Below, piece by piece: positions 8,993 to 63,090 of a stretch of 64,000 nucleotides of DNA. The position numbers and the translations under genes were made by a program. The first letter of the stretch is position 1. Each line of letters begins with the position of its first letter. Below the pieces are notes generated by a model. The model saw only the letters and a program-made list of their open reading frames with translations, was not told the DNA's origin and ran no database searches. This stretch comes from Shigella phage ChubbyThor. Where the stretch lies: sequence record OL615013. The stretch is one strand, 5' to 3'.

Positions 8993-8995
8993 GTT

Positions 8996-9039: not shown

Positions 9040-9341
9040 TGGGATGGGATTGAAACTTCCTCGCGCGTTATTTTATTATACTATCACTCGCTTCACTGCG
9101 TTCCGCTCGGATAACACCGCCTTGACAGGCAGTCCCATTCCACAGCCATGGAGGCTGCTTTTCGTTGTTCGTTAACACTCACAACTCAAAGGGCACAGCG
9201 ATACGATACAGTCTCTGAGTGGTGTAGAAAAGTAGTTTTTGCCTATTAATAAACCGCGCTCCTATTCGTTGGCCTTTAATTCAATAACACCTTCACCAAT
9301 ATAATAGTGCGGTCAATTAACCATATATTAAGGAACCTCTC

Positions 9342-9914: not shown

Positions 9915-9971
9915 CGCTTTATTCAATAAAGAATTGCAGTAAAGTTAGTTGCATGGAAGGGAGGGAACACT

Positions 9972-10118: not shown

Positions 10119-10119
10119 C

Positions 10120-12170
10120 TCAAAGAGGAGAGGACTTTTCAAATTAGCTGGTCTGCGGTAAAGTATTAAACACGAGGGAAACAGCGCATTGAGTTAGGCA
10201 TCTAAAGCCGACCTCACTAATCCCAGTCTCAGGGGCATGCGTGAATAGAGGCGTAATATCCACCTCGCTGGTGTCAGTGGACGCACTTGACCGTCGGAGA
10301 ACGAAACTCCCTGTTGTAGCGTGATTAGCTCAGAATCAGAGAGCACCCCGTTGGCAAGTCGACACCAACATATAAGGGGAGGTCGGGGGCGCTAATCTCC
10401 ATCACGCCGACAACATTATGAGTCTTCATAGAGGGTTCATAATGTTGCGTCAAAGGGCAACACAAAGGTTCCTGTTGGTTGAATTAACTTGATTCATAGT
10501 TCCTGCTGATCTTCCCGGATTCGAAGGAGCACCAACAGGCGAGGCCGGATGCGTAAGTTCCGGCAAATCGATGGCGAGGTGGTGCATTGGTGACACGGGG
10601 TAGCGCCCAGAAGTGTGGTTCGATTCCACACCCTCGCCAACAAATTAAAGGTTTTGTCAATAACGGGTTGCAGAGTATAGTTAACCCACTGAACGAAAAG
10701 CTGTTTGGGCACTAGACAAACACTTCGATGTGAACCCAGGACATGGCGTCTTGTGCTCAAACAGGTTTTCGTTCTCGTTGCTTGCGGCTTTGCGGGTTTT
10801 AAGAAACAGACCACAAAGATAAATGCAAATGATAACGCTTATCTGGCAGTAGCTTAACAGCTAAAACACCAGTGAGGTCTTCCGACTCCTCATAACAAAA
10901 TTCGGCGCACTAAAAATAGGCGGGAGGGTGTGATTAATAAGCTCCCGCCGACATCTGAGAGGGCACTTGATCGAGGTCGGTATCCGCTATACGGGATGCT
11001 GTAAAATGAATCCACGGAGTGTCCTCCCAGATGTGTCTCACAGCGCATCAGTTTGCAGTTATGCAAGCTTCAATAAGTTAAAACGCGCCTCAGGCGTTAT
11101 GGGATAAAGCCTTAAACAGTGGAATCCCCAGGGCTGGCAATCCCTGTTAAAGAAGTAGCCGTGTGGGGGTCAGCCCCCACAACGCAAAGTAGAGTCCTCT
11201 GGACGTTGAACTTTAACCCAAGGGTTGATTCACATGGTGAACGTTCCCGGCGGCGATAGTACAAGATGAGGGGTCATTGAAGTTCAGAGAACTCTACTTT
11301 GCGGCAGGTACTGCAAAACAGTGATCATCCTGACAAGCGTGATCACTCTTCGACAAAGCATCGCATCGTGGCTATCAACCACATCCTCGCTCTAGTGATG
11401 AGTGGTGTTATGTTCTGTCGGCCAGCCTCGTTTGGTCTGAACGTTAGAGGACAAGTGCTGAAGTGTGACGAAGACACTGAAGTGCGGGTTGTTTGGTGAA
11501 TCCTGCTAAGCGCAAGGGTTGAGTGGCAAAGAAACACCTGAGGGTAAGTCAACGCCATTATTCGCCATGATAATGGCATCGGGAGGCACCCGACGCTAAA
11601 CCGTTTGGCCTGGCGAAAGCAGGCAAGTATCTGGGGTCGATCACCTTGTCCTCTCCCAGGTGCGGGTTGTAGCATGGCTGCAACTCTGATGGCTCTGGGC
11701 ATCCGAATATCAGTTGTGGATGACTAGTGAAAAGAACGTTCAGAGCCATCAGAGTTGTGACCAACCCGATCTTGCAAGCCCGTATCCCGATCTGGTTAAG
11801 ACTTGCAAGTGGAAAGCCCTGGAAAAATAAACGCCTGTTGTGAGGCTACGGTGCAAGCCAATGACCAGCAGAAGCGCGTTGCCGTGAGGCGCACAAAGAG
11901 GCCTGCATGAACTGATCATGCACAAACGGGATAAAGGGTTGACAGTCCTTGGTTGGTTACACAACAGATTAAGGGGCGATAGTTTAAGGGATAGCTGTCC
12001 GGACAGCGAATCCTCATAGAGAACGGCTGGGAGGCCAAACCCAGCAGGTGAGGTGAAAATCCTCAAACCCCGCCAAACATTGTTGGACTGCCAGCAAGCT
12101 CCGGTCTACGGCAGGCGTGATGGGATCGCGGAATTCAAATACCGCCTTGGGAGCACCTAAATAAACCAGT
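10120..12170 (+). ncRNA. ORF-free, hairpin-dense region: candidate large structured non-coding RNA(s)
   Basis: No ORF with plausible composition or RBS on either strand over about 2 kb; many stable stems (e.g. GGCGGGAG/CTCCCGCC near 10920-10950, GTGGGGG/CCCCCAC near 11163-11183, 12-bp long-range pair GCAAAGTAGAGT/ACTCTACTTTGC); strand and boundaries undetermined. Confidence 0.3.
11680..11756. repeat. 17-bp perfect inverted repeat with 43-nt loop
   Basis: caactctgatggctctg (11680-11696) is the exact reverse complement of cagagccatcagagttg (11740-11756). Confidence 0.85.
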
Positions 12171-12193
12171 TGTTCAATAAACAATTGGTGAGT

Positions 12194-12394
12194 ATGATGA
12201 AAACGTTCGGTGATTTTATTGCTGAGTGGGATGGCCTCGCCACCGACAACAAAGAGATTGTCGAGTTTGTTGAAAAGCGAGGTGACAAGTGGGTTGTCCT
12301 TGACCACACCAAGACGAAGGTTCTTGGTACACATGACACCAAAGCTGACGCTGATGCCCAATTAAGGGCGATTGAAGCGAACAAGCACGGATAA
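12194..12394 (+). CDS. small hypothetical protein (66 aa)
   Basis: ORF track 12170..12394 begins at TTG; internal ATG at 12194 with GGTGAG SD is more plausible; stop lies 1-2 nt before tRNA-Asn. Confidence 0.35.
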   Translation: MMKTFGDFIAEWDGLATDNKEIVEFVEKRGDKWVVLDHTKTKVLGTHDTKADADAQLRAIEANKHG

Positions 12395-13570: not shown

Positions 13571-13694
13571 GCCCCCAGCTTAATGTCTTCTTATCACCCC
13601 AAATATGTAATCCTTCGTCGTAGTTTGTTCAATGATACAAAGGGGTTTAAAATTTAACCGTTAAAACCCCTATCATTGATTTGAGGATACACCA

Positions 13695-16861: not shown

Positions 16862-16890
16862 AAGGGGCGTTAAGCCCCTTTCTTTATTTC
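16862..16890 (+). terminator. bidirectional intrinsic terminator between convergent genes
   Basis: Hairpin AAGGGGC-GTTAA-GCCCCTT followed by TTTCTTTATTTC, A-rich on 5' side. Confidence 0.55.
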
Positions 16891-16896
16891 TTCACA

Positions 16897-17423: not shown

Positions 17424-17519
17424 TGATGTATTTCCTTCTCTTCAGATTGTTGTTTGTTCGTACTACAATTAGAAGTATACGCCAGTTATTGAAGAAGTAA
17501 ACTTTATTCAATAAATATT

Positions 17520-18365: not shown

Positions 18366-18426
18366 TGAATGGCTCTATGGTTAAATATGCCCACGTGCTA
18401 ACGGCACGGATAACCTGGAGAATTAC

Positions 18427-21426
18427 ATGACCGTTTTCTATACGAACGTTGCCCGCCGGGGCAATGACCTGTTGATTCGAATCGCAGATGACATGGGTAA
18501 TCGCCGTCTGTTGAAAAAGAAATTCGAACCCACTCTCTATTTACCCACGGCTGATTATTCAAATGTTGAAAAGGTCGGCTTGCTCAACGAACCTTTGATC
18601 TCCAAGAAGTTCCCTGACATGCGCACTGCTGACAACTACCTTGAAGAGTACAAGGAAGTCCAGGGTGCAGCCATTTACGGGCAGACCGATTATGCATACC
18701 AGTTCATCGCCCACAGCTTTCCTGGGAAGATCGAGCCGGATTACTCCAATATCCATATCGCCAACCTCGATATCGAAGTGTTCACCGCCGGGTGGAAAGA
18801 TGGGGAGATGACCAAGGGTCCATTCCCTCATCCGACTATTGAGCAGCAGACGTTCAAAGGTAGCGAGGCACGCATCCGCCGCTTCCATCAGCAGGTACTG
18901 GCCAACCATGACTTCATCCGTGAGCACTTTCCCAGTTCCTTTATCAGCAATAATGTAACTGATCAGTTCCCTATCATTGATAGCAATGGCAAGATCACCC
19001 AGGACATGAATGCAGCGTTCCCTATCACGCTCATCCAGCTTCAGGACATGGCGACCAATAAGTTCATGGTGTGGGGTATGCCGTGCGCGAAGGATCGTGC
19101 GAAGTTCAGATACGATCCAGAAGACGCGGAGATCGGTGGACTTGAGGTGGAGTACAAGGAGTTTGTCACCGAGCAGGATCTGCTGCGATCTTTCCTTGAC
19201 TTCTGGTCACAGCGTCAGTTTGATGGCTGGACAGGCTGGAACATTGAAACGTTCGATAGCCCGTATCTTGTTGAGCGCATGAACCAGGTTCTGGGCGAAG
19301 CCGAAACATCGCGCCTCAGTCCTTGGGGTATCATCAAGAAGCGTATCATTCGCGATAAGAAGGGCGATATCACGACGTATCAGTTCGTGGGCTGTCCTAT
19401 GCTCGATTATATGCAGATCTACAAGAAGCACACGTACACCACCCGTGAGCGGTACTCTCTTGATTGGATTGCTTACTGTGAGTTGGGTGAGAAGAAGATG
19501 GACTACAGTGAGAGCAAGTCGCTCTTTGATCTGTACTTCAATGACTATGCCAAGCACACCCGATATGGTATCAAGGACGTCAAGCTGGTATGGCGTCTCG
19601 AACAGAAGCTGCGTCTGCTCCAGCTGATGTTCGTCCTTGCGTACCGCACCAAGTCGAACTATGAAGACGGCCTGGGTACAGTGGCTCCGTGGCTGGCCAT
19701 GTGCTACTATCGTCTGTATGAGAAGGGCATCGTGCCTAAGATCCAGCGTGTATACGATGGTCCGACCGATTTTGAGGGCGCATACGTCATGGAGGTGACA
19801 CCAGGAATCTACTTCTGGGTCTTCTCTGAGGACTTGAACTCCCTCTACCCTCACATCATCCAGCAATACAACCTCGGTCCTGAGACTATCGTTGGCGACA
19901 AACACCAGCGCCGTGAGATCATTGAGGCTATGTGTGAAGAGCTGGCTGCTCAGATGAATAACATGGCAACGCCGATGCACAAACGTCGGTTGATGAAAGC
20001 CCTTCACGACAAACTGTTGCGCGCGATTGACGAACGCCTGCAGGTTGTTGATGAACTGGTTGCTCTGGGTGAGTTCCACTTTGAAACCCTGCGCCGCTAC
20101 AACGTGTCCTTCACGCCGAACGTTCAGTTCTTCAGCAACGAGAAGATGTCGTTCCTGTCTGAAATCATGCGCGGTATCTACAGCGACCGTAAAGTAGAGA
20201 AGGCCAAGGGGCTGAAGTACGAGCAGTGGGCTGGTTGGTGTAAAGAGATGGCGAAGGGTGACTTCCATCTTGAGTCCGCCATGAAGTCCCGCTACTACGA
20301 TCCAGAGTGGTATGAAGAGCACAAGAACATCGATCTTGATGCACTGACCGAAGTGATGAAGAAGTGGGAAGATCTGGGCGTTGCCCAAGATACCCTACAG
20401 CAAGGTCTGAAGATCTTGATGAACGCAGGTTATGGCGCGATCTCAAACGTCTGGTTCAAAGAGTACTTCAACCTCAACATCGCCGAAGCCATCACAACGT
20501 CCGGTCAGCTGATCAACAAGTGGAACAAGCGCTACACCGATGACTATCTGAACAAGCTGTGCGGCACGACAGGCCAGGACTTCGTCATCGCGGGTGATAC
20601 CGACTCCAACTACATCTGCATTGAGCGTCTTGTCAAGCAGTTGTGGCCTGATGTTACTGACCATCATGCTATGGTTGATAATATCGACCAATGGATCAAA
20701 GACAACTACCAGCCGAAGACCAATGAGTGGGCACAGCTTCTGTGTAACACCATGAACGGATTTGAACAGCGCATGGTGTGGGAGCGTGAAGTAATTGCAT
20801 CAGCTGCCGTCTGGCGAGCCAAGAAGATGTATGCCATGGCTGTGTACGACAGTGAGGGTATCAAGTACGAGAAGCCGAAGATCAAGTTCAAAGGTCTGGA
20901 AGCCCGTAAGTCCACCACGCCGGAATGGTGTCGTGAGCGCCTTGTCAAGTGCTATGAGAAGATCCTACTCGGCACCGAAGAGGAAGTACAGACGCTCATC
21001 TCCCAGTACAAAGAGGAGTACATGAAACTCTCTGTAGACGATATCGCCAAGGCGTCAGGCGTGTCCGACATAGAGAAGTGTGTGGCCGCCGACGGCTCGT
21101 TCATCTCTGGTGCTCACTATGCTGCCAAGGCTTGTGTGGGTTACAACCGCATGGTAGAGAAGAACGAAGACCTCGGCCTGCCGATGATTGAGTCGGGTGA
21201 TAAGGTCAACATGGTACTGCTGAAGAATGGCAACCCGTTTGGCCAGAATTACTTCGCATATCCTGAGTTCTTCCCCGAGGAACTGGGTATGGGTAAATGG
21301 GTGGATTACCATACAGCCTTTGAGAAGTCCTTCATCGACCCGATTCAGTCCATCCTTGACGTGGTCGGCTGGTCACACAAGCGTCGTGTGAACCTTCTTG
21401 CCATGATGCAAAAGAAGAAAGGTTGA
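18427..21426 (+). CDS. DNA polymerase, family B (T4 gp43-like) with 3'-5' exonuclease domain
   Basis: 999-aa ORF; Exo I motif ANLDIEVF, polymerase motif A DLNSLYPHII, motif C IAGDTDSNYI. Confidence 0.95.
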   Translation: MTVFYTNVARRGNDLLIRIADDMGNRRLLKKKFEPTLYLPTADYSNVEKVGLLNEPLISKKFPDMRTADNYLEEYKEVQGAAIYGQTDYAYQFIAHSFPGKIEPDYSNIHIANLDIEVFTAGWKDGEMTKGPFPHPTIEQQTFKGSEARIRRFHQQVLANHDFIREHFPSSFISNNVTDQFPIIDSNGKITQDMNAAFPITLIQLQDMATNKFMVWGMPCAKDRAKFRYDPEDAEIGGLEVEYKEFVTEQDLLRSFLDFWSQRQFDGWTGWNIETFDSPYLVERMNQVLGEAETSRLSPWGIIKKRIIRDKKGDITTYQFVGCPMLDYMQIYKKHTYTTRERYSLDWIAYCELGEKKMDYSESKSLFDLYFNDYAKHTRYGIKDVKLVWRLEQKLRLLQLMFVLAYRTKSNYEDGLGTVAPWLAMCYYRLYEKGIVPKIQRVYDGPTDFEGAYVMEVTPGIYFWVFSEDLNSLYPHIIQQYNLGPETIVGDKHQRREIIEAMCEELAAQMNNMATPMHKRRLMKALHDKLLRAIDERLQVVDELVALGEFHFETLRRYNVSFTPNVQFFSNEKMSFLSEIMRGIYSDRKVEKAKGLKYEQWAGWCKEMAKGDFHLESAMKSRYYDPEWYEEHKNIDLDALTEVMKKWEDLGVAQDTLQQGLKILMNAGYGAISNVWFKEYFNLNIAEAITTSGQLINKWNKRYTDDYLNKLCGTTGQDFVIAGDTDSNYICIERLVKQLWPDVTDHHAMVDNIDQWIKDNYQPKTNEWAQLLCNTMNGFEQRMVWEREVIASAAVWRAKKMYAMAVYDSEGIKYEKPKIKFKGLEARKSTTPEWCRERLVKCYEKILLGTEEEVQTLISQYKEEYMKLSVDDIAKASGVSDIEKCVAADGSFISGAHYAAKACVGYNRMVEKNEDLGLPMIESGDKVNMVLLKNGNPFGQNYFAYPEFFPEELGMGKWVDYHTAFEKSFIDPIQSILDVVGWSHKRRVNLLAMMQKKKG

Positions 21427-21479
21427 TTCAATAAACCAAAGGGGGATATAATTCCCCCTGTTAACCCTTTGACAAACAG

Positions 21480-23607: not shown

Positions 23608-24517
23608 AATAATTGTAGTGAAAGGCACCTCGGCCACGGGCAAGGGTACGAGAGTGGTCCAGTTCATCGAATGGCTCCGTACGAAGCTGGAGCCTACCGA
23701 ACTCACCTACACCATTGGTGGCAAGACGCGCCCGTTTGGCCTGAAATTCGAAGAGCTGAAGTTGATCTTCGTCGGCCAGTACACTGTGTCCAACAAATCC
23801 GGCCTGGCTTCCTGGACTTCCATGGACGCCATTCATGCTGCCACAGGCTCGGGTGATATCGCTCGTGACCTGGTCAAAGGCTGGCTGGCTCAGGGTTACA
23901 CCCTGGTGTGTGAGGGCGAACCCCTCATGCTGTCGGACAAATGGCGTCCTGAGTGGATGTTCAAGAACTATCCGATTGAATCATTGGCGCTGCTGTACTT
24001 TGCGTACCCCGACCGCTATCAGTACGATGCCCGCATCCGTGGTCGCTCTGGTAAAGAAGCAGGGGACTCCGGCTGGTCTCGCAACGAATCTTACTCCAAG
24101 GAGTTTGAGAAGTCGAAGGCCGAAATGCTGGCGCTGGGCTTCACCCCTGTGGTTGACAACTACAGCGGGCAGGATATCCTGTATAAAGCGCCAGAGGCCA
24201 ACACCCAGGAGTTCACGACCAAACAGCAGTCCGAGTTGGCGGTGCTCCCATACGACGCCCCGCTGTGGGTTGTGGGTAATGCGATTTGTCATCAGATACG
24301 GTCCGAACTGCGTGAAGTGAACATGGACACCAAAGACTTCTATGGTTTCTGTGAGACCGACCCAATGACCCGTGAGGTCGGCGGTGATGATCCTTTGGCG
24401 CACAGAGTGCCTGAGAAGCCGCAGAAGGCATCCAAAACTAAAACCAAGGCGAGCGCCCAGCCAGAAGCACCGAAGGCAGCGTCGCGCTCCCTCCTTGACC
24501 TGATGAAGAAGGGGTGA
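23600..24517 (+). CDS. P-loop kinase / NTPase (candidate DNA 5-hydroxymethylpyrimidine kinase)
   Basis: 305 aa; Walker A-like VVKGTSATGKGT at N-terminus; functional assignment inferred. Confidence 0.5.
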   Translation: MAKIIVVKGTSATGKGTRVVQFIEWLRTKLEPTELTYTIGGKTRPFGLKFEELKLIFVGQYTVSNKSGLASWTSMDAIHAATGSGDIARDLVKGWLAQGYTLVCEGEPLMLSDKWRPEWMFKNYPIESLALLYFAYPDRYQYDARIRGRSGKEAGDSGWSRNESYSKEFEKSKAEMLALGFTPVVDNYSGQDILYKAPEANTQEFTTKQQSELAVLPYDAPLWVVGNAICHQIRSELREVNMDTKDFYGFCETDPMTREVGGDDPLAHRVPEKPQKASKTKTKASAQPEAPKAASRSLLDLMKKG

Positions 24518-24717
24518 TCATGAAACGGTTGTCTAATTATCTGTTATTCGTCGGTCTGGTTATGGCAGCCGTTTCAATGTGCGCTGCCCTAGCCTATCAT
24601 TTCACTCCTCTGGACTTAACAACCTCAGAGAAGTTGAACGTGACTGTGATGTACTGTATTGGCGCGGTGATGTCTATCGGCGCTGCTGGTTACAAAATAT
24701 TCAAGGAACCAAAATGA
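24514..24717 (+). CDS. small membrane protein
   Basis: 67 aa with two hydrophobic helices. Confidence 0.4.
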   Translation: MIMKRLSNYLLFVGLVMAAVSMCAALAYHFTPLDLTTSEKLNVTVMYCIGAVMSIGAAGYKIFKEPK

Positions 24718-25070
24718 AAATTCAAATCCCTCGCGATGCTGTGGCTGTCGCAATTGACTACACCGGAAACGCCAAGCACATTACTGCTGTGCGCCTGATT
24801 CCTGAAAAGAACTGCGTGATCCCTCAGTTCCAGCTGAATGCCAACCCGTCGTCTAAAGACTTCGGTCAGTGGCTGCAAGCGGCTCCGTTCCGCACCCAGA
24901 CGAATGCCCAGATGTTCATCTCGGGTAAGACTCACACTGCAGCCCGTCTGTGGTTCGTGACCGCTGACCGTCGCTTTGTCGATATGTGGGAGCGCCCGAT
25001 GGGGTTCGTGAAACCAGAAGACATTCAGCTGGCTCCTGAAGAGGAAGCGAAAGATGACGCATCTATCTAA
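24714..25070 (+). CDS. hypothetical protein
   Basis: ORF track 24579..25070; ATG at 24714 overlaps upstream stop. Confidence 0.45.
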   Translation: MKIQIPRDAVAVAIDYTGNAKHITAVRLIPEKNCVIPQFQLNANPSSKDFGQWLQAAPFRTQTNAQMFISGKTHTAARLWFVTADRRFVDMWERPMGFVKPEDIQLAPEEEAKDDASI

Positions 25071-26280
25071 AATGCCGACGGGATATACACCCCCGGCTGA
25101 ATGGAAGTATCCGATTGACCTGGCTGTTGATTATCGCAAGCCTGAGAATCGCATGTACCTGCTCAAGGCTTGGGTGGAGGCGCTGTCCTACACCGAAGAG
25201 CACAATCAGCAGATGCGTCTGATGGACTATGCTATCGAAGTCACTGAAGGTATCAGCCTCGAACAGAAAGTCGAGCGCAAGATCTGGATGGCATTCCTTT
25301 GGGGTTGTTGCTATAACGCCATCGGTCCATGGACGATCTACAGTGAGTTCCCTGTGCCACCACAGTCCAAAGAAGAGATGCAGCGCTTCTCTGATTGGTA
25401 TAACCTGAACTTTGATCGCATGCGCTTCGATACCGACTGTCGCTACCGCAAGTCGAAGATGATTCCATGTGTTCAGTCCTATATTGACTGGCTGGCTGGC
25501 CGTACTCAATATGACGCTTTCCGTGAGATGCTGGTGTGCATCGATAAAGCAGAACAATTCACTCAGCTGTGGGACACGGCGATGTCCTGGAAATACTTCG
25601 GTCGCCTCAGTGCCTGGAACTTCCTGGAAGCCCTGAACATGGTCTTCGGGGACGAATACACCATTGACGTCCCTGGCTTCATGCTGCGTGACCGTGATGG
25701 TAGCGAGTCCAACCGCAACGGCGCGGCGTTCTTGTCCAACCGTGACGACTGGGTGACCAAGCACGGGAAGAAAAAGATCAACGGTTGTCCTATCACGGAT
25801 GAAGAGTGTGACATCCTTGAGGCCGACCTTGAGCAGGCGTTCCAGGATTGCGTGGCTGAGTTCGGGCATCTGACGTTCATCAATCGCCTGAACTTTGAAA
25901 CCTCCGGCGCATGCTGGCTGAAGAAGTTCTTCCGTGAGAAGAATACCCGTTACATTGGGTGGGATGCCGAGCGTACCTGGGATGAGATCGACTACATGGA
26001 ACGCATCTGGCCGGAGTACTCCTGTGCAGCGCTCTGGGAAGCCCGTTCGCTCTGGCTACCAGATACCCTGTTATGCGAAAAGGCACCTCCAGGGCACGTT
26101 CCAGGCGTTCAGAAGTGGAAGATGCCTGTGTTCTTTGAGACTGGCGTTCCTCTGCACATCTGGCATCTGCAAAAGGGTACGCGCTGGGAGCCTGACCAGG
26201 TGTATCAAGAATTGGGTAAACCGAAGATTGATAAACCGAAGTCCAACAGCGTCAACCTCATGGCACTCTTGAAACGCTGA
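25054..26280 (+). CDS. hypothetical protein (408 aa), candidate base-modifying transferase partner of the kinase
   Basis: Large Trp/Cys-rich ORF immediately downstream of kinase; function inferred from context only. Confidence 0.45.
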   Translation: MTHLSKMPTGYTPPAEWKYPIDLAVDYRKPENRMYLLKAWVEALSYTEEHNQQMRLMDYAIEVTEGISLEQKVERKIWMAFLWGCCYNAIGPWTIYSEFPVPPQSKEEMQRFSDWYNLNFDRMRFDTDCRYRKSKMIPCVQSYIDWLAGRTQYDAFREMLVCIDKAEQFTQLWDTAMSWKYFGRLSAWNFLEALNMVFGDEYTIDVPGFMLRDRDGSESNRNGAAFLSNRDDWVTKHGKKKINGCPITDEECDILEADLEQAFQDCVAEFGHLTFINRLNFETSGACWLKKFFREKNTRYIGWDAERTWDEIDYMERIWPEYSCAALWEARSLWLPDTLLCEKAPPGHVPGVQKWKMPVFFETGVPLHIWHLQKGTRWEPDQVYQELGKPKIDKPKSNSVNLMALLKR

Positions 26281-26312
26281 TATAAATATCCTCGCCTATA
26301 AAGTGAGGATAT
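26281..26312 (+). promoter_or_regulatory. T4-type late-promoter box TATAAATA whose tail forms an SD-sequestering hairpin
   Basis: TATAAATA at 26281-26288; 8-bp stem ATATCCTC (26286-26293) / GAGGATAT (26305-26312); ATG of small ORF at 26317. Confidence 0.4.
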
Positions 26313-26316
26313 TATC

Positions 26317-26484
26317 ATGTTACAAGATCTGTTGGTCTACGCACTTCCGGGTGTGGTTGTTGGATTCATCGCAGGTGCTCTGGTCTTCCGCAAACACGCG
26401 CAAGACGGTGAAGTGATTGTTCAGAAGGGTAAAGACATCCTGGAACAAATCGAAGCCAAACTGGATGAGCTGAAGAAAAAGTAA
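26317..26484 (+). CDS. small protein (55 aa) with N-terminal hydrophobic helix
   Basis: ATG 26317 with GAGGA SD; below ORF-track cut-off. Confidence 0.3.
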   Translation: MLQDLLVYALPGVVVGFIAGALVFRKHAQDGEVIVQKGKDILEQIEAKLDELKKK

Positions 26485-26512
26485 TCTGATTGCGATTGCG
26501 TTCTTCAATAAA

Positions 26513-26550
26513 GGGGAATGGGTTAATATTAGCCCGTTCCCCTTTCTTTT
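26513..26550 (+). terminator. intrinsic terminator
   Basis: 10-bp stem GGGGAATGGG/CCCGTTCCCC followed by TTTCTTTT; preceded by TTCTTCAATAAA motif. Confidence 0.55.
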
Positions 26551-26565
26551 GCAAGGAAATACATC

Positions 26566-26778
26566 ATGGCAATGCAACGAATTGAAGATATGTCCCTACT
26601 GGATATGGAAGCGACTTTTGGTGATTACTTTGAGTCCACTCCGAAACAAAAAGACCCTCTGGTTGGCCGTCTGGTGGTTTCTGAAGCGTTCGCACAGAAA
26701 GTTCGCGAAGGTCTTCCGCCTGAATATGGGTGCTTCCGTAATGGCGCTTCCGTTATCGTCATGGGTGAATCTAAATGA
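26566..26778 (+). CDS. hypothetical protein
   Basis: 70-aa ORF. Confidence 0.4.
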   Translation: MAMQRIEDMSLLDMEATFGDYFESTPKQKDPLVGRLVVSEAFAQKVREGLPPEYGCFRNGASVIVMGESK

Positions 26779-27161
26779 CACAGTCCGAATACAAACAGTA
26801 CCTGTACGATCTGTTCATGAAAGAAACGGATGGTACACTCCATCCTAAGAAAGCCACTATCGTCGTGCTGCATTCACAAGGTGCCCTGTCATTCTCCTAT
26901 CTTTTCAAAGAATTGGATCTGATGGGCATTGAATATAAAAAGCACATTACGCCAGAACGCACTCTGAAGCGCGCAACCGCTCACTGCGTCCATTCAGTGG
27001 CAACTGTTATGTTCCGCCATCACATCACATTTGATGAAGCGCTGGACCCACAGTATCACGAAGAACGCTGGGGACTGTTGTTGCATAACGGTGCCAATCC
27101 TGAGCACAAAGATCAACTCCTTGGGATGACCAAGGCACAACTCGTGGATGGTGTGTTATGA
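26775..27161 (+). CDS. hypothetical protein
   Basis: 128-aa ORF, start overlaps upstream stop. Confidence 0.45.
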   Translation: MTQSEYKQYLYDLFMKETDGTLHPKKATIVVLHSQGALSFSYLFKELDLMGIEYKKHITPERTLKRATAHCVHSVATVMFRHHITFDEALDPQYHEERWGLLLHNGANPEHKDQLLGMTKAQLVDGVL

Positions 27162-28273
27162 TCTATCTCCTGTTTGGTGTGCCATTGATACTGGCCATCC
27201 TGTTTGTGGTCTACCACCGCAAGACCCATGAGCCGAAAGAGACTCTGATTGCGACGGCGATTGTGGTGGTGCTGTCCTGTCTGATTCAGGTCGGGGCTTA
27301 TGCTGCGTTCTCCCTCGGCAGTTCAGGGGACGTTGAGATCCTGAACGGATACGTCACTGGCAAAGAGCGCAATAAGGTGAGCTGCGAGCACTCGTATCAG
27401 TGCAACTGCTACTACACCACATCATGCTCCGGCTCCGGTAGCAGCAAGTCCTGTACCCGTACCCGTCATTGTAGTACCTGCTATGAGCATTCGTATGACG
27501 TGGACTGGGATGTGCTGACGACTGTCGGTAATCTGACAATTGACCGCATTGACCGCCGTGGTCTTGGCCAGCCGCCGCGCTGGGCGCAGGTTCAGATTGG
27601 TGAGCCAGCCGCCCGTGAGCACTCCTACATGAACTATGTGCTGGGCAACAAGGACTCTCTGTTCTCCCGCTCAGACCAGCAGTTTGCTGAGCGCTTCAAA
27701 GACAAGATTCCCAAGTACCCTGAGGTCTATGACTACTATCGTGTCACTCGTGTGCTGAACGTGTCCGGTCTGGCTTTGCCGACCACATACTGGAACGACT
27801 ACCTGAATGATGTTCTGAAGAAGCTGGGCGCGGCCAAGCAGGTGAACATCGTCTGGGTTGTGACATCCGGGCAGCCAGTTGAATATTTCCAGGGCTTGGT
27901 CTATGCATGGGATGGCGGTAAAAAGAACGACGTTATCGTCGTGACCGACATCAGCAAAGACCTGAAGATCAATTGGGGTAAGAGCACTTCGTTCGCTGAT
28001 GGTATGCACAACCGTGAACTTCACTCCCGCAACGGTATGGACCTGACTGGGCATGATATGGGTATCGGCGTCATGACAGACGTTGTCGCCAACATCACCA
28101 AAGGCTACAACCGCGTTGAGATGAAGGAAATGGAGTACCTGAAGTGGCGGGAACTCAAGACCTGGGAAGTTGTGGTTGTTGTTCTGCTGGGCTGCTTGCC
28201 GTTCACCGCAATTTTCATATTGCAGCGAATGGAGTACAATGGTGGCCGTCGTCGTTATCCGTTTAATTTTTAA
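27158..28273 (+). CDS. Cys-rich membrane protein
   Basis: 371 aa; N- and C-terminal hydrophobic helices; cluster CEHSYQCNCYYTTSCSGSGSSKSCTRTRHCSTC. Confidence 0.5.
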   Translation: MIYLLFGVPLILAILFVVYHRKTHEPKETLIATAIVVVLSCLIQVGAYAAFSLGSSGDVEILNGYVTGKERNKVSCEHSYQCNCYYTTSCSGSGSSKSCTRTRHCSTCYEHSYDVDWDVLTTVGNLTIDRIDRRGLGQPPRWAQVQIGEPAAREHSYMNYVLGNKDSLFSRSDQQFAERFKDKIPKYPEVYDYYRVTRVLNVSGLALPTTYWNDYLNDVLKKLGAAKQVNIVWVVTSGQPVEYFQGLVYAWDGGKKNDVIVVTDISKDLKINWGKSTSFADGMHNRELHSRNGMDLTGHDMGIGVMTDVVANITKGYNRVEMKEMEYLKWRELKTWEVVVVVLLGCLPFTAIFILQRMEYNGGRRRYPFNF

Positions 28274-28291
28274 TCAAAAGAGGAAGTAAGA

Positions 28292-28861
28292 ATGTCTCAA
28301 TCTAAGGGTATTGCAACAGGTTGGATCGTTGGTTTGGCTTTGCTGGGTATGGTGATTGTCGGCATCGGCACAGTCATCAGCTACTTCAACGACTTCAACC
28401 GCACCGAACAGCAGGTCAAGAAGTTCAACAAAGACTCAGAGAACTACCTGAGCAACTACACGCTCAAAGTTCAGGAGACGGCGCAGATTCCTGACATGTA
28501 CAAAGACGGCCTGAAGGAAGTGATCAAAGGCACGTTCGAAGGGCGTTATGGCGCTGATGGTTCCAAGGCTGTTATGCAGTGGATCCAGGAGCAGAACATT
28601 CAGTTCGATTCCAGCCTGTACAAAGAGATCCAGGTGGTGATCAGTTCTGGGCGTGATGAATTCCGCATCAGTCAGACCAAGAAGCTGGATATCTGCGCAA
28701 TGTACGAAACCAAGCTGGCTCAGTTCCCTGGTTCGTTGATTGCTGGCATGTTCGGCTACCCACGCATCGATCTTGACAAGACCTGTCAGGTGGTGAGCGA
28801 TACCCGTACCCAGGCTGCGTTTGACGCTGGGGTTCAGAAACCGATCAACTTCAAAGGCTGA
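28292..28861 (+). CDS. membrane-anchored protein
   Basis: 189 aa with N-terminal TM helix. Confidence 0.45.
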   Translation: MSQSKGIATGWIVGLALLGMVIVGIGTVISYFNDFNRTEQQVKKFNKDSENYLSNYTLKVQETAQIPDMYKDGLKEVIKGTFEGRYGADGSKAVMQWIQEQNIQFDSSLYKEIQVVISSGRDEFRISQTKKLDICAMYETKLAQFPGSLIAGMFGYPRIDLDKTCQVVSDTRTQAAFDAGVQKPINFKG

Positions 28862-28865
28862 TATC

Positions 28866-29291
28866 ATGAGCGTGAAACTCACTGAATCACTGACGCTGGA
28901 CCAGCAGCAGGCGCTGTTAGACGAAGTGGTGATCTCTGCTGTCAAACAGGGGATCATCCGTGACGACACACTGATCAACCGCCCGGAGATGATTCATCAT
29001 CTGGCGGTGTGCCTGGGTGAGGCCAGCAACCCTCGCAAGAAGATCCGTATGTTCAAGGGCGGCGTGATCTATCCAAACGGGCGTTTCGGTTTCATTGAAC
29101 CAGTGCTGAAGACCGACGGCACCCCAAACAATAATGGTGGTCATATCAAGACCTCTGTTCCAGTAACGCCGTATACTGAAGGGGTCGATCAGCTGTCTTG
29201 GTTCGAGACAATCAACACCATCTATATCATGGCACCTGACGGAGAGCCTGTTCAGGATTTGCGAGGCGTCAAAGTAGAATCTGAAGACTAA
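28866..29291 (+). CDS. hypothetical protein
   Basis: ORF track 28821..29291; ATG at 28866 follows upstream stop. Confidence 0.45.
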   Translation: MSVKLTESLTLDQQQALLDEVVISAVKQGIIRDDTLINRPEMIHHLAVCLGEASNPRKKIRMFKGGVIYPNGRFGFIEPVLKTDGTPNNNGGHIKTSVPVTPYTEGVDQLSWFETINTIYIMAPDGEPVQDLRGVKVESED

Positions 29292-29307
29292 TCGTTCTTC
29301 AATAAAA

Positions 29308-29341
29308 GGGGATAGGGTATTATTGCTCTATCCCCTTTTTC
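29308..29341 (+). terminator. intrinsic terminator
   Basis: Stem GGGGATAG/CTATCCCC followed by TTTTT; preceded by GTTCTTCAATAAA. Confidence 0.55.
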
Positions 29342-29353
29342 GTGGACAGGAAC

Positions 29354-29722
29354 ATGACAGACAAGCCAAGAAAGATCGCGATTATTGGAGCCGGACTGGG
29401 ATCTCGGTTGATCAAAGTTCTACTGGAAGAGAAGCTGCCAGGAGTTGAGGTTGTGCACATCACTCCCGATGATATCCCGAAGCGTCGAAGTGAATCGGGT
29501 GAACGCATGATCATCTGCGACGAGCTACAGCAGATGCCAGACACCAAGGAATTGATCGCCAAGCTGAAACGACTGGATGAAAGAGAATTACCAGCCGAGG
29601 CCAGCATGCGTGAATTTTACGCCGACCGCCGCTATCAAGAACCCACACGCCTGCGTGGAGCCGCTGCTCACAAACGTCAGGCCGCTAAAATGAAGAATAA
29701 ACGCCGGAGCAAACGCAAATGA
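29354..29722 (+). CDS. hypothetical protein with basic C-terminus
   Basis: ORF track 29342..29722 (GTG); ATG at 29354 likelier. Confidence 0.45.
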   Translation: MTDKPRKIAIIGAGLGSRLIKVLLEEKLPGVEVVHITPDDIPKRRSESGERMIICDELQQMPDTKELIAKLKRLDERELPAEASMREFYADRRYQEPTRLRGAAAHKRQAAKMKNKRRSKRK

Positions 29723-30171
29723 CTACCAAACCAACTTATGAAGAACTGGCGCAGACCGTTCTGACCTTCGACAGCACCCTGAAGAATCTGTACAAGGTGC
29801 TGGGGAATAACCCGACTTCGCAGTCAGGCAACACAGTCAATCTTCTGTTACTGCTGAACCCTCTGTGGGATATTGATGCCACTGTTGCTGCCCTGAAAGA
29901 TCCTGGGGCACAGGAACCGGAGCCGGAGCCAGCCCCTGTATCCACGGGGATTCAGAATTATCTGGAGAACTTTGATGAGTACTCCTTCACCGACCTGCTC
30001 CTGCGTGATATGATCAACGCAGAACGCCGTCGCCAGGAAAAGAACTGTCCTGAAGTTCAGTCTGATGAAGAAATCGAGCAGAGCGTTCGCGAAGGACTGG
30101 AGGCTTCTATAGGCCTGGCTGTGATGATTGTTCAGGCGCTGTCCTATGCTGCCAAGGGGGAAACGAAATGA
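29719..30171 (+). CDS. hypothetical protein
   Basis: 150-aa ORF, start overlaps upstream stop. Confidence 0.45.
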   Translation: MTTKPTYEELAQTVLTFDSTLKNLYKVLGNNPTSQSGNTVNLLLLLNPLWDIDATVAALKDPGAQEPEPEPAPVSTGIQNYLENFDEYSFTDLLLRDMINAERRRQEKNCPEVQSDEEIEQSVREGLEASIGLAVMIVQALSYAAKGETK

Positions 30172-30877: not shown

Positions 30878-30903
30878 CAAAGCCCTCAGCCGAGGGCTTT
30901 TTC
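30878..30903 (+). terminator. intrinsic terminator
   Basis: AAAGCCCTC-AGCC-GAGGGCTTT then TTTC. Confidence 0.55.
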
Positions 30904-30977
30904 AATTGAAGCCCACCACAGTATCATACCCACTCAATCAATATGTTTCCCTTTGACATTGATAGGATTTCTATACT

Positions 30978-35328: not shown

Positions 35329-35345
35329 TCTTCAGTAAACCTACA

Positions 35346-35370
35346 AGGGGGCTTCGGCCTCCTTTTCTTT
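35346..35370 (+). terminator. intrinsic terminator
   Basis: AGGGGGC-TTCG-GCCTCCT then TTTCTTT. Confidence 0.5.
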
Positions 35371-44216: not shown

Positions 44217-44627
44217 ATGAAATTACTCGGTTATTTTCGCGAACTCCCAACGGGTACTGAAGGCAAGTTGTTCTCACAGGTGAAAGGGAATGACATCGGT
44301 GATACGATGGTTCCATTGTACACCCGTGACCTTCCTGCCGAAGGTGCCTGGGAGCGCCGTGTGGTCGCTGCCGCCAACAAATATGGTGATGTGATCGTCG
44401 TTGCCGACCGTCATCACAGCCGATTCATGAACAGTCAGCTCAAGATCCTGAAAGAGGCTGGCGTCATTAAATCCACCCATACCCGCGAACAGGGATTCAT
44501 CGACAACCAGGGCAACTTCCTCACTCGTGAAGAGGCTTGCGTCGTAGCCCGTGAAGCCGGACAAATCAATCAGGTGCGCCTGAAGACAACCCCATTCCGC
44601 GAACTCTTTTCCGAAGACCTCTATTGA
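44217..44627 (+). CDS. hypothetical protein
   Basis: 136-aa ORF. Confidence 0.45.
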   Translation: MKLLGYFRELPTGTEGKLFSQVKGNDIGDTMVPLYTRDLPAEGAWERRVVAAANKYGDVIVVADRHHSRFMNSQLKILKEAGVIKSTHTREQGFIDNQGNFLTREEACVVAREAGQINQVRLKTTPFRELFSEDLY

Positions 44628-44676
44628 AGAAAAAGGCGGTATTATTACCGCCTGATCCCCATACGAGATAACAACT

Positions 44677-49180: not shown

Positions 49181-49202
49181 ATAAAGATTCAGCGGTTATT
49201 GA

Positions 49203-49232
49203 AGAAGGGGGAGTATATACTTCCCCTTAGTT
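49203..49232 (+). terminator. long GC-clamped hairpin (terminator-like)
   Basis: AAGGGGGAGTATA/TATACTTCCCCCTT; flanked by TTATTGAAGAAG motif. Confidence 0.4.
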
Positions 49233-59849: not shown

Positions 59850-59962
59850 GTGGTGTCTCCAGGGTTATATGTGCTGCTATTATAACCCTGGCGACTTCAA
59901 TAGATTATTGGCGGGTGCGGGATCTTGCCTGGCTGACGATGAGGTCAGTATGTAGTCCTCAG

Positions 59963-60304: not shown

Positions 60305-60358
60305 GGTCTGTTCCTTCTGTAAGTTCCCATGTATTATATGGGTGAATCGTTTAATGAA

Positions 60359-62241: not shown

Positions 62242-62312
62242 GATTTAGTAACAACTCTTCAATAGAGATTAAATATTAGGCGCTTTATTCTTGAAAGTAA
62301 AGTTATTGAAAT

Positions 62313-63049: not shown

Positions 63050-63090
63050 TCAGATCATAGAATTATACCCTATGACCCACGGTATTGAAT

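What the first reader, a model, noticed from the sequence alone, without database searches (positions are those of the whole stretch)
26495..26550. Recurrent 12-nt motif TTCTTCAATAAA in both orientations next to GC-clamped hairpins
The motif, or its reverse complement TTTATTGAAGAA, occurs near 9913, 12172, 17468, 17500, 21427, 26497, 29285, 44625 and 49195, almost always within a few nt of a G5/C5-stem hairpin whose loop is AT-rich and often TATAAT-like. It is too conserved for a generic A/T-tract and could be a regulator-binding site or a processing/termination signal.
Basis: seen in the sequence. Interest (0 to 1): 0.45.

Follow-up and report, generated by a model that had tools for sequence, protein, structure and literature searches.

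The report
Phage promoter box inside terminator hairpins
The repeated TTCTTCAATAAA motif is most likely a shared building block of this Ackermannviridae phage's own early and middle gene promoters, several of which sit inside the terminator hairpin of the preceding gene; it probably marks promoter classes that the papers I could read list as unidentified for this family, but this rests on sequence analysis alone.

Summary
The window comes from an Agtrevirus phage (Ackermannviridae), about 96% identical to Shigella phage Ag3.

**Observation.** The motif is real and far above chance, but only two copies are exact.

**Core and architectures.** The core is the 8-mer TTCAATAA. It occurs in three promoter-like arrangements, all pointing the same way as the next gene:
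- **M:** TTCAATAA(A/C), then 11 nt (range 9-13), then a TAnnnT hexamer, with no -35 element. This is the spacing of a T4 middle promoter.
- **R:** the inverted 8-mer at the same distance from the hexamer.
- **E:** TTTAC-TTCTTCAATAA-N5-TATACT, a T4-early-like promoter in which the motif is the spacer.

**Hairpins.** In 8 M/R sites the -10 hexamer lies at the top of a GC-clamped RNA hairpin. New transcripts would start in the descending arm and so escape termination.

**Conservation.** The box, its spacing and the -10 hexamer are kept across Ackermannviridae genera while the flanks diverge.

**Closest known kind.** PeSL/PmSL promoter-terminator cassettes of T4-like phages. Here the box is new and no MotA/AsiA is known in the family.

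**Limits.** No transcript data exist, and the factor that reads the box is unknown.

**Verdict.** New variant of a known kind, moderate interest.

The parts
26501..26512 (+). Exact 12-mer TTCTTCAATAAA. The core box TTCAATAAA is 26504-26512. It lies 17 nt after the TAA stop (26482-26484) of the upstream 55-aa gene.
26524..26529 (+). -10-like hexamer TAATAT, exactly 11 nt after the box and at the apex of the hairpin. The transcription start is predicted (inference) near 26536, in the descending arm.
   Evidence: Kuttervirus SFP10 has TATTAT here, so TAnnnT is kept.
26510..26552 (+). Hairpin with a 16-bp stem (two G.U pairs) and loop AUAU, followed by the U-tract TTTCTTTTG. This is the intrinsic terminator of the upstream gene. 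The RBS AAGGAAA and the ATG at 26566 follow.
   Evidence: One search gives -25.8 kcal/mol, z = -6.0. It is annotated as terminator Torf248 in Ag3.
29295..29341 (+). Second exact 12-mer (29295-29306), with the -10 hexamer TATTAT at 29318-29323 (N11). The hairpin has a 16-bp stem (29304-29339) and a U-tract. The downstream ATG is at 29354.
   Evidence: One search gives -24.3 kcal/mol. The cassette is conserved across 13 IMG/VR relatives whose downstream protein is only 55% identical.
21424..21459 (+). TGATTCAATAAA, which contains the DNA polymerase stop codon TGA, then N11, then TATAAT (21447-21452) forming the 6-nt loop of hairpin 21440-21459. There is no U-tract on the + strand. The downstream ATG is at 21489.
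   Evidence: Listed as the sigma-70-like early promoter Porf237 in the Ag3 paper and by the generic scan.
9280..9305 (+). TTCAATAAC-N11-TATAAT with no hairpin, 36 nt upstream of the first gene (ATG 9342) of a + strand unit in a divergent intergenic region.
   Evidence: In Klebsiella phage Bullseye the box and the -10 are identical but the spacer and flanks have diverged.
9918..9945 (+). Perfect palindrome TTTATTCAATAAA, then N9, then TAAAGT. A TTTATT hexamer sits at the -35 position.
   Evidence: The N9 spacing is kept in Bullseye and in Serratia phage Kevin.
10656..10681 (+). GTCAATAAC-N11-TATAGT in the non-coding/tRNA region (Ag3 has TTCAATAAT here).
12170..12198 (+). TTGTTCAATAAA-N11-TATGAT. 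This site is doubtful: the hexamer overlaps the ATG of a small annotated ORF, so it could at best serve the downstream tRNAs.
13628..13653 (+). Variant TTCAATGAT-N11-TAAAAT, overlapping a hairpin, upstream of the ATG at 13695.
17474..17515 (-). This is a T4-early-like -35/-10 pair in which the motif forms the spacer.
   Evidence: It is conserved in Bullseye, Kevin and six IMG/VR Ackermannviridae contigs.
30879..30927 (+). Plain terminator hairpin whose U-tract runs into the variant box TTCAATTGA, followed by N12 and TATCAT, upstream of rIIA (ATG 30978).
   Evidence: The same layout occurs in Bullseye and Kevin.
44620..44653 (+). R-class site. The inverted box is CTATTGAA (44621-44628, containing the stop codon TGA). 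After N11 comes TATTAT (44640-44645) at the apex of hairpin 44634-44653. The downstream ATG is at 44677.
   Evidence: The box, spacing and hexamer are kept family-wide. A 244-nt insertion relative to Ag3 starts exactly at 44653.
49195..49228 (+). R-class site. The inverted box is TTATTGAA (49196-49203). After N12 comes TATACT (49216-49221) inside hairpin 49205-49228. The downstream ATG is at 49251.
   Evidence: TATACT and the N11-12 spacing are kept family-wide, and the stem shows compensatory changes.
59859..59903 (-). R-class site on the - strand: CTATTGAAG-N10-TATAAT inside an 11-bp hairpin, upstream of the DNA ligase gene.
60326..60358 (-). M-class variant TTCATTAAA-N11-TATAAT with the hexamer in a small hairpin.
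62273..62310 (-). E-class variant: TTCAATAAC, then TTTAC, then TTTCAAGAATAAAG..., then TAATAT.
63053..63089 (-). M-class variant TTCAATACC-N13-TATAAT with the hexamer at the apex of a 13-bp hairpin, just downstream of the gp41 helicase gene.
   Evidence: Bullseye has TTCAATAAA-N12-TATAAT at the orthologous site.

Best explanation
The motif is a conserved module of the phage's own promoters for its pre-late (early and middle) genes.

**Main form (M).** The box TTCAATAA(A/C) lies 11 bp (range 9-13) upstream of a near-consensus sigma-70 -10 hexamer, where a -35 element would otherwise be. This is the layout of a T4 middle promoter, so RNA polymerase probably needs a phage factor, or a remodelled sigma region 4, to use it. 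That step is inferred.

**Inverted form (R).** The inverted 8-mer TTATTGAA occupies the same position, about -32 to -25.

**Early-like form (E).** The same 12-mer forms the spacer of T4-early-like promoters, TTTAC-N17-TATACT.

**Overlap with terminators.** In about half of the M/R sites the promoter overlaps the intrinsic terminator of the upstream gene, with the -10 hexamer at the apex of a GC-clamped hairpin.
- Transcripts arriving from upstream fold the full hairpin plus U-tract and stop.
- Transcripts started at the embedded promoter begin in the descending arm, lack the ascending arm and read on into the next gene.
- The result is a compact terminator/promoter cassette that insulates neighbouring transcription units.

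**Shown:** the sequence architecture, the statistics and the conservation. **Inferred:** promoter activity, the start sites, the temporal class and the reading factor.
For: **Statistics.**
- TTCAATAA-N12-TANNNT occurs 5 times against 0.015 expected, and TTCAATAA 13 times against 2.4.
- All 16 catalogued sites point the same way as the next gene or RNA on that strand. Where a start codon follows, it lies about 25-65 nt after the hexamer.

**Position.**
- None lies in the late structural gene blocks of the window.
- Across the whole Ag3 genome, a scan allowing one mismatch gave 48 hits. By my reading, about 20 are intergenic M sites. There are also 3 R sites and about 10 E sites.
- The M/R sites lie in front of replication genes, nucleotide-metabolism genes, tRNA genes and small genes of unknown function.
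- One site (9280) heads a transcription unit in a divergent intergenic region, where a promoter must exist.

**Cross-genus conservation.**
- Box, spacing and -10 are kept while spacers and flanks diverge (Klebsiella phage Bullseye; Serratia phage Kevin; profile search over these loci).
- In IMG/VR relatives the cassettes are almost invariant while the flanking proteins are only 55-70% identical.
- A loop change from TAATAT to TATTAT keeps TAnnnT.

**Hairpins.**
- They are stable RNA structures, -14 to -26 kcal/mol, with G.U pairs and compensatory changes.
- AT-apex hairpins carry the box in 8 of 8 cases, plain terminators in 1 of 10.

**Literature.**
- The T4 MotA box lies 12 +/- 1 bp from an excellent -10 (PMC2988021).
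- PeSL stem-loops of G-runs and C-runs most often lie between -35 and -10 or overlap the -10 (PMC2839356).
- Early and middle promoters of ViI-like phages were reported as not identified (PMC3184105).
Against: - No transcript 5' or 3' ends are available for any Ackermannviridae phage in the searchable literature, so promoter activity is unproven.
- The box sits at different distances from the -10: N5 in class E, N9 at 9919, N10-13 in class M. It also works in both orientations, which is not what a single rigid MotA-like contact predicts.
- No MotA, AsiA or other candidate reader was found.
- The -10 hexamers in hairpin tops could partly reflect AT-rich palindromic apices.
- Site 12170 overlaps a start codon.
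- Hairpin 21440 lacks a U-tract on the + strand.
- The Ag3 authors read one site as an ordinary sigma-70 promoter, TTGATT-N18-TATAAT.
- The extreme conservation leaves little variation for covariation tests.
Confidence: 0.7

Rival explanations
1. The motif is an operator for a dimeric phage (or host) DNA-binding regulator, which acts mainly as a repressor or temporal switch rather than as the element that recruits RNA polymerase. Binding over the spacer and just upstream of the -35 would shut off the E-class early promoters. This could coexist with activation at M/R sites.
For: - The consensus is a near-palindrome, TTATT-S-AATAA. It is perfect at 9918 and 17503, and at the 44620 site in other genera.
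- It occurs in both orientations at the same place.
- At the two E-class sites in the window, two copies about 18 bp apart flank the TTTAC -35 (17474-17515 and 62273-62310). Other E-class sites in Ag3 and IMG/VR contigs also carry a TTGAA- or TTCAATAA-like arm upstream of TTTAC.
- A small protein of PHROG 639 ('transcriptional regulator') with a weak match to Pfam Phage_DsbA is encoded at 62357-62677, next to one such promoter.
Against: - No binding protein has been identified.
- Most sites are single and asymmetric (TTCTTCAATAA).
- The fixed N11 distance to a -10 in promoters lacking a -35 points to a positive role.
- The two roles are not mutually exclusive.
Confidence: 0.25
2. These are ordinary sigma-70 promoters used by unmodified host polymerase. 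TTnTTC or TTGATT serves as a weak -35 at 17-18 bp, or TTCAAT as a -35 with a short spacer. The conserved CAATAAA is only a favoured AT-rich spacer inherited among related cassettes.
For: - The generic scan and the Ag3 authors call 21424 TTGATT-N18-TATAAT.
- Two of the M sites start the -35-position hexamer with TTG: TTGTTC at 12170 and 13628, at 17 bp.
- The -10 hexamers are near consensus.
- E-class sites do have a T4-early-like TTTAC -35.
Against: - At the best-conserved hairpin-free site, 9280, the hexamer at the -35 position is TAATTC in the window and ATATTC in Bullseye. It is neither -35-like nor conserved, while the box is identical.
- TTCAAT would leave a 14-bp spacer at N11 sites, below the workable range for sigma-70 (established knowledge).
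- Conservation peaks on TTCAATAA, not on the -35 position.
- No extended -10 TG is present, except at one Ag3 site.
Confidence: 0.2
3. The motif is an accessory of the terminators. It would supply the A-tract that extends the stem by pairing with the U-tract, and a T-rich tract on the opposite strand that makes the hairpins bidirectional terminators, or it would be an RNA processing site.
For: - AAA of the motif pairs with the U-tract at 26510 and 29304.
- Read on the - strand, each hairpin is followed by TTTATTG or TTCTTC. The scan calls 21440 a - strand terminator.
Against: - The motif occurs without hairpins, at 9280, 9918, 12170 and 17485.
- 9 of 10 plain terminators lack it.
- This reading explains neither the fixed distance to TAnnnT nor its conservation where the spacer diverges.
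- The box is kept from its first T even where the upstream gene is replaced (L041).
Confidence: 0.08
4. The repeats reflect copying or gene conversion among mobile promoter-terminator cassettes (PeSL-type recombination), with no base-specific function for the 12-mer itself.
For: - Some E-class cassettes share about 60 nt beyond the motif (Ag3 100549 and 64904).
- Three of about 12 indel breakpoints against Ag3 lie at cassettes: 44653, 46727 and 59946.
Against: - The paralogous M/R cassettes share only the box, the hexamer and the G/C clamp, not the stems or flanks.
- Orthologous sites keep the box across genera.
- The breakpoint association is not significant once one allows that indels must fall at gene boundaries.
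Confidence: 0.07

Closest known systems
PeSL / PmSL composite promoter-terminator cassettes of T4-like phages (Arbiol et al. 2010, PMC2839356; Comeau et al. 2014, PMC4122927)
   Same: - Intergenic cassettes that combine a promoter with a stem-loop made of a G-run and a C-run, acting as terminator for the upstream gene.
- The stem-loop commonly lies between -35 and -10 or overlaps the -10.
- The cassette runs from the stop codon to the RBS and ATG.
- They are found before small genes of unknown function and replication genes.
- PmSLs pair a -30 box with a TATTAT-type -10.
- Some indels abut the cassettes.
   Different: - The phage family differs (Ackermannviridae, not Straboviridae).
- The upstream element is TTCAATAA in either orientation, not TTGACA/TTTAC at 17 bp and not the TGCTT Mot box.
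- Activity, terminator function and recombination were shown by experiment for PeSLs. Nothing has been shown here.
T4 middle promoters (MotA box plus -10, sigma appropriation by AsiA/MotA; Hinton 2010, PMC2988021)
   Same: - No -35 element.
- A 9-bp box centred near -30, placed 12 +/- 1 bp from an excellent sigma-70 -10. Here the distance is 11 bp, range 10-13.
- The targets include rIIA and tRNA genes, as for T4 middle promoters, and also ligase, topoisomerase (in phage Kevin) and other replication genes.
   Different: - The box sequence is unrelated: TTCAATAAA against (a/t)(a/t)(a/t)TGCTTtA.
- It also works inverted, whereas MotA is a monomer on a directional site.
- ViI-like phages are reported to lack MotA and AsiA.
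T4-type early promoters (-35 TTTAC(A/T), about 17 bp, -10 TAYWAT)
   Same: The E-class sites (17474-17515, 62273-62310 and about 8 more in Ag3) have TTTAC, a 16-17 bp spacer and TATACT/TATAAT. They are often directly preceded by a terminator hairpin whose U-tract runs into TTTAC.
   Different: The spacer is itself conserved (TTCTTCAATAA), and a second, inverted copy often lies upstream of the -35. I did not find this described for T4.
Predicted regulatory sites in the Shigella phage Ag3 paper (Anany et al. 2011, PMC3121705, Table S2)
   Same: The orthologues of 21424 (Porf237), 26510 (Torf248), 44634 (Torf021) and 49205 (Torf031) are listed there one by one, as a sigma-70-like promoter or as terminators.
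   Different: The paper does not mention the shared box, the box-to-hexamer spacing, the -10 inside terminator loops or the three architectures. Only 9 'early' promoters are listed, against about 33 sites found here.

Membership tests
PeSL/PmSL cassettes | An intergenic composite of a promoter and a stem-loop, lying between the stop codon of one gene and the RBS/ATG of the next | tested here: met
   Eight window sites have the box, the hexamer and the hairpin within 35-50 nt between genes.
PeSL/PmSL cassettes | G-run/C-run stem-loop placed between -35 and -10 or overlapping the -10 | tested here: met
   The hexamer lies at the hairpin apex at 21440, 26510, 29304, 44634, 49205, 59859, 60326 and 63053. 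Compare.
PeSL/PmSL cassettes | Sigma-70-like -35 and -10 about 17 bp apart (PeSL), or a TGCTT Mot box plus -10 (PmSL) | tested here: not met
   M/R sites have neither a -35 nor TGCTT. Only the E-class sites have TTTAC-N16/17.
PeSL/PmSL cassettes | The stem-loop terminates transcription and the cassette drives expression (shown with reporters in RB49/phi1) | not testable with these tools
   Prediction only: -14 to -26 kcal/mol, with U-tracts at 26510 and 29304 but none at 21440.
PeSL/PmSL cassettes | Association with indels and gene replacements between close relatives (modular shuffling) | tested here: inconclusive
   Three of about 12 breakpoints against Ag3 abut cassettes, one of them exactly at the hairpin end (44653). 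This is not significant given that indels fall at gene boundaries.
T4 middle (MotA-dependent) promoters | An excellent sigma-70 -10 and no -35 element | tested here: met
   The hexamers are TATAAT, TATTAT, TAATAT, TATGAT and TATAGT. The hexamers at the -35 position are neither -35-like nor conserved.
T4 middle (MotA-dependent) promoters | A 9-bp box centred near -30, 12 +/- 1 bp from the -10 | tested here: met
   The spacing is 11 bp at 8 window sites and 10-13 bp in Ag3, Bullseye and Kevin.
T4 middle (MotA-dependent) promoters | MotA box sequence (a/t)(a/t)(a/t)TGCTTtA | tested here: not met
   The box is TTCAATAA(A/C), or its inverse.
T4 middle (MotA-dependent) promoters | MotA and AsiA encoded by the phage | tested here: inconclusive
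   The literature reports none in ViI-like phages. Pfam, PHROG and PDB scans of 18 candidate proteins found none. The full proteome was not screened, and no fold searches were run.
Intrinsic (rho-independent) terminators | A GC-rich RNA hairpin followed directly by a U-tract | tested here: met
   Met at 26510 and 29304, and at 30879. At 21440, 44634 and 49205 it is met only weakly or on the opposite strand.
T4-type early promoters | TTTAC(A/T) -35, a spacer of about 17 bp, and a TAYWAT-like -10 | tested here: met
   Met at 17474-17515 and 62273-62310, and at about 8 more sites in Ag3. This applies only to the E-class sites.

The most novel reading that the evidence does not exclude
Ackermannviridae redirect host sigma-70 RNA polymerase to a class of middle promoters that lack a -35 element, using a so far unidentified factor unrelated to MotA/AsiA. 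That factor reads an 8-bp box (TTCAATAA, in either orientation) at about -32 to -25. The same box inside the spacer, and upstream of the -35, of the TTTAC early promoters lets the factor shut those promoters off. One protein and one motif would then drive the early-to-middle switch, with many promoters nested inside terminator hairpins.
Probability: 0.3. Interest if true: 0.7.

Novelty: new variant of a known kind. Interest (0 to 1): 0.5.

Why it matters
- **A gap in a well-used phage family.** Ackermannviridae (ViI, CBA120, Ag3, LIMEstone and relatives) are widely used for biocontrol and engineering. Yet the CBA120 genome paper stated that their early and middle promoters could not be identified and that no MotA/AsiA exists. 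A 2024 family review does not mention promoters or transcription at all.
- **What the catalogue offers.** About 33 sites per genome, with a defined box, spacing and -10, give a testable promoter map. That map is useful for annotation, for reporter and engineering constructs, and for designing insulated expression units.
- **A possible second route.** The sites point to a second, independent way of replacing the -35 contact.
- **A design principle.** Nesting the promoter inside the terminator is a compact arrangement so far documented only for T4-like PeSLs.

Tried and rejected
- **Motif in the literature.** Searches for TTCAATAA and CTTCAATAA with phage or promoter terms found nothing relevant. 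The 'Viunalikevirus' paper (Adriaenssens 2012), which as I recall mentions 'conserved regulatory sequences', and the phiMAM1 paper are not held. Prior description there cannot be excluded.
- **Transcriptome or start-site data for the family.** None found.
- **IMG/VR scan for TTTACTTCTTCAATAA.** It was dominated by chance hits in unrelated contigs. Only six contigs of 154-160 kb were informative.
- **Candidate readers.** Pfam, PHROG and PDB sequence searches of the proteins nearest the double-box promoters, and of the first genes behind E-class promoters, gave only 'unknown function'. The exceptions were PHROG 639 and a sub-threshold Phage_DsbA match for 62357-62677.
- **Sigma-70 -35 readings (TTCTTC at 17 bp, TTCAAT at 14 bp).** Rejected as the main explanation; see the rival explanations.
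- **IHF or H-NS site resemblance.** Checked by eye only. The IHF consensus WATCAANNNNTTR is not met.
- **N4-type DNA-hairpin promoter or cruciform.** Disfavoured. The stems contain G.T positions that pair only in RNA, and the stems are long.
- **Formal covariation statistics.** Not run, because the orthologous cassettes are nearly invariant. Only individual compensatory or wobble changes are reported.
- **First gene call.** My first naive gene call mislabelled several intergenic sites as coding. It was corrected using the Ag3 annotation.
Full report
**Source of the window.** The window comes from an Agtrevirus phage (Ackermannviridae). Positions 24000-30000 are about 96% identical to Shigella phages Ag3 and Gloob. 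Window position 30978 corresponds to Ag3 coordinate 1, the start of rIIA. The window holds three kinds of region:
- late tail genes on the - strand (1-9007);
- a block of tRNA genes and small ORFs;
- DNA polymerase, rIIA/B, topoisomerase and many small early-type genes on the + strand (18427-50728), followed by baseplate genes and a - strand block of replication genes.

**Check of the observation.**
- The exact 12-mer TTCTTCAATAAA occurs twice, at 26501 and 29295. No match appeared in any of 100 shuffles.
- Enrichment is solid. There are 18 matches at up to 2 mismatches against 5.4 expected. The core TTCAATAA occurs 13 times against 2.4, and TTCTTCAATA 5 times against 0.28.
- Only five of the nine sites touch a hairpin, so 'almost always' is too strong.
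- The remark that the loops look like TATAAT is correct, and it turned out to be the key.

**Anatomy of the flagged site (26495-26550).**
- The upstream 55-aa gene ends with TAA at 26482-26484.
- The 12-mer lies at 26501-26512, with the box TTCAATAAA at 26504-26512.
- Exactly 11 nt later comes TAATAT (26524-26529).
- A 16-bp hairpin spans 26510-26545, and TAATAT lies at its apex. The hairpin contains two G.U pairs and folds at -25.8 kcal/mol with z = -6.
- A U-tract TTTCTTTTG follows, then AAGGAAA, then the ATG at 26566.
- The sites at 29295 and 21424 are built the same way: box, N11, then TATTAT or TATAAT at the hairpin apex.

**The box-to-hexamer rule.**
- TTCAATAA-N12-TANNNT occurs 5 times against 0.015 expected.
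- The rule also holds where there is no hairpin. At 9280, TTCAATAAC-N11-TATAAT lies 36 nt before the first gene of a + strand unit, in a divergent intergenic region where a promoter must exist.
- A catalogue of the window gives three architectures:
  - **M (forward box, N9-13):** 9280, 9918, 10656, 12170 (doubtful, because the hexamer overlaps a start codon), 13628, 21424, 26501, 29295, 30898 (variant TTCAATTGA, before rIIA), and on the - strand 60358 and 63089.
  - **R (inverted box YTATTGAA, N11-12):** 44620, 49195 and 59903 (-). Each has the hexamer in a hairpin top.
  - **E:** 17474-17515 (-) and 62273-62310 (-). Here TTTAC is followed directly by TTCTTCAATAAC, then N5, then TATACT. This is a T4-early-like -35/-10 pair with the motif as the spacer, and it has a second, inverted copy upstream.
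- In M and R the 8-mer occupies the same position, about -32 to -25, whichever way it points.
- All sites point the same way as the next gene, and none lies in the late gene blocks.

**Two kinds of hairpin.** In the intergenic hairpin census, 8 of 8 hairpins with an AT-rich TAnnnT apex have the 8-mer 11-14 nt upstream of the hexamer. Of 10 plain terminators with GC stems and tetraloops, 9 lack it. The exception is 35345, which has TTCAGTAA. Fisher p is about 2e-4. Several plain terminators are instead followed by a box-like element plus a -10 (30879, 37521, 46660).

**Whole genome.**
- I assembled the Ag3 genome from five fetched pieces.
- A scan allowing one mismatch in the box gave 48 hits, of which I judged about 20 to be intergenic M sites. 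About half of these have the hexamer in a hairpin loop.
- There are also 3 R sites and about 10 E sites.
- M/R sites precede ligase, the gp41 neighbourhood, thymidylate synthase and related nucleotide-metabolism genes, the HU-like gene, the sliding-clamp gene, the tRNA region, and the gene just after the DNA polymerase gene.
- E sites precede small genes with no Pfam match and with PHROG 'unknown function'.
- This split parallels the T4 middle and early gene sets. That parallel is an inference.

**Conservation.**
- In Klebsiella phage Bullseye and Serratia phage Kevin, which belong to other genera, the orthologous sites keep the box and the hexamer while spacers and flanks change. For example, the spacer at window 9280 is accttcaccaa and in Bullseye it is attcgttctat. 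In Kevin the spacing drifts to 10-13.
- SFP10 (Kuttervirus) and JA15 (Limestonevirus) have an almost identical 26501 cassette. Their only loop change, TAATAT to TATTAT, keeps TAnnnT.
- In IMG/VR relatives the 21424, 29295, 44620 and 49195 cassettes are almost invariant while the neighbouring proteins fall to 55-70% identity. In one contig (L041) the upstream gene is replaced, and conservation begins exactly at the box.
- Stem differences are wobble or compensatory changes: G-C to A-U at 49205, U.G to U-A at 29304, and C to U giving G.U in Kuttervirus. This fits an RNA hairpin rather than a DNA cruciform.
- E-class cassettes are conserved from the inverted arm through TTTACTTCTTCAATAA and the -10, and end in a similar AAGGAAnTAnATnATG ribosome site and start codon.

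**Mechanism.**
- *Shown.* The motif is a positionally constrained, conserved partner of a sigma-70-type -10 hexamer in front of genes. In many cases the hexamer sits at the top of the upstream gene's terminator hairpin.
- *Inferred.* These are promoters.
  - Polymerase coming from upstream transcribes both arms plus the U-tract and terminates.
  - Polymerase initiating about 7 nt after the hexamer starts in the descending arm (near 26536, for example). Its RNA cannot form the hairpin, so it continues.
- M/R sites have no usable -35. TTCAAT would leave a 14-bp spacer, and at 9280 the hexamer 17 bp upstream is neither -35-like nor conserved.
- The layout matches T4 middle promoters, which have a 9-bp box 12 +/- 1 bp from an excellent -10. 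A phage factor that replaces the sigma region 4 contact is therefore the most economical reading.
- Three facts weigh against a simple MotA analogue:
  - the box is unrelated to the MotA box;
  - it works inverted;
  - it also appears at N5 and N9, and in pairs around the -35 of E-class promoters.
- Those facts fit a symmetric DNA-binding protein that could activate at about -28 and repress early promoters. This last step is speculation, and no candidate protein emerged.

**What is known.**
- The nearest described kind is the PeSL/PmSL cassette of T4-like phages. These are promoters fused to stem-loops of G-runs and C-runs that terminate upstream transcription. The stem-loop usually lies between -35 and -10 or over the -10. 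PmSLs use a Mot box plus TATTAT.
- The cassettes here have the same architecture, but they occur in another phage family and have a different upstream element.
- For the ViI-like phages, Kutter et al. wrote that there is no MotA or AsiA and that they could not identify potential early promoters by informatics.
- The Ag3 paper lists only nine sigma-70-like 'early promoters' and 40 terminators. These include the orthologues of 21424 (as a promoter) and of 26510, 44634 and 49205 (as terminators). It does not note the shared box or the overlap of promoter and terminator.
- The LIMEstone paper gives only counts of promoters. A 2024 family review does not mention promoters.
- I could not read Adriaenssens et al. 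2012, which as I recall mentions 'conserved regulatory sequences'. Some prior description therefore cannot be ruled out.

**Link to genome plasticity.** Against Ag3, a 244-nt gene is inserted exactly at the 3' end of the 44634 hairpin. A 0.9-kb insertion follows the 46660 terminator/promoter. A 1.65-kb indel lies about 45 nt from the 59859 cassette. Kuttervirus has an extra ORF right after the 26501 cassette. This is what PeSL-type shuffling would give. However, indels must fall at gene boundaries in any case, so the association is not significant.

**Verdict.** The finding is real and not a chance A/T tract. The motif is best read as a promoter module within terminator/promoter cassettes. That makes it a new variant of a known kind, of moderate interest to phage biologists, and it needs 5'- and 3'-end mapping to confirm.

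Noticed in passing
window 18392-18408 (and 18378-18386): The 5' leader of the DNA polymerase gene (ATG 18427) holds a hairpin, CGTGC-TAAC-GGCACG, preceded by GGTTAAATA. The block is almost identical in Serratia phage Kevin although the flanks differ. It could be a translational operator like that of T4 gp43, or a late-type promoter.
   Followed up: partly
window 16261-16271 and 16361-16371 (+); 5143-5153 (-): CTAAATACCCC occurs three times. The first copy is part of an 11-bp hairpin (16265-16291). The same motif precedes the orthologous genes in Bullseye and Kevin. It is a candidate gp55-type late promoter of this family.
   Followed up: partly
window 26281-26313: A T4-late consensus TATAAATA (its only copy in the window) overlaps an 11-bp hairpin directly before the 55-aa gene at 26317.
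   Followed up: no
window 10119-10586 and 11964/12844: About 470 nt have no convincing ORF but contain a 17-bp hairpin (two G.T positions) at 10411-10447. The window also lacks the tRNA-Ser(tga) of Ag3 and a further 85 nt.
   Followed up: no
window 44653-44898, 46727-47630, 39197-40353, 59946-59951, 16885-16892: These are gene-sized insertions, deletions or replacements relative to Ag3. The first begins at the last base of the 44634 hairpin and the second just after the 46660 terminator/promoter. ORF 39512-40342, inside a 1.15-kb segment whose Ag3 counterpart is only about 0.4 kb, was not characterised.
   Followed up: partly
window 62357-62677 (-): A 106-aa protein matches PHROG 639 'transcriptional regulator' (E = 3e-31), with a sub-threshold match to Pfam Phage_DsbA (the T4 dsDNA-binding late regulator). 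It is encoded next to a double-box E-class promoter.
   Followed up: partly
window 35328-35364: ATCTTCAGTAAA (box with one mismatch) lies 6 nt before a plain UUCG-loop terminator, with no -10 hexamer. It looks like a degraded half cassette, and Bullseye lacks the box here.
   Followed up: partly
Ag3 100549 and 64904 (L010 near 20549, L009 near 30904); IMG/VR L107, L129: Some E-class cassettes share about 60 nt beyond the promoter (tcattccataagcagtacgacac...), so they look like duplicated leader cassettes. In some of them a CGGGG/CCCCG hairpin encloses the -35 and the 12-mer.
   Followed up: no
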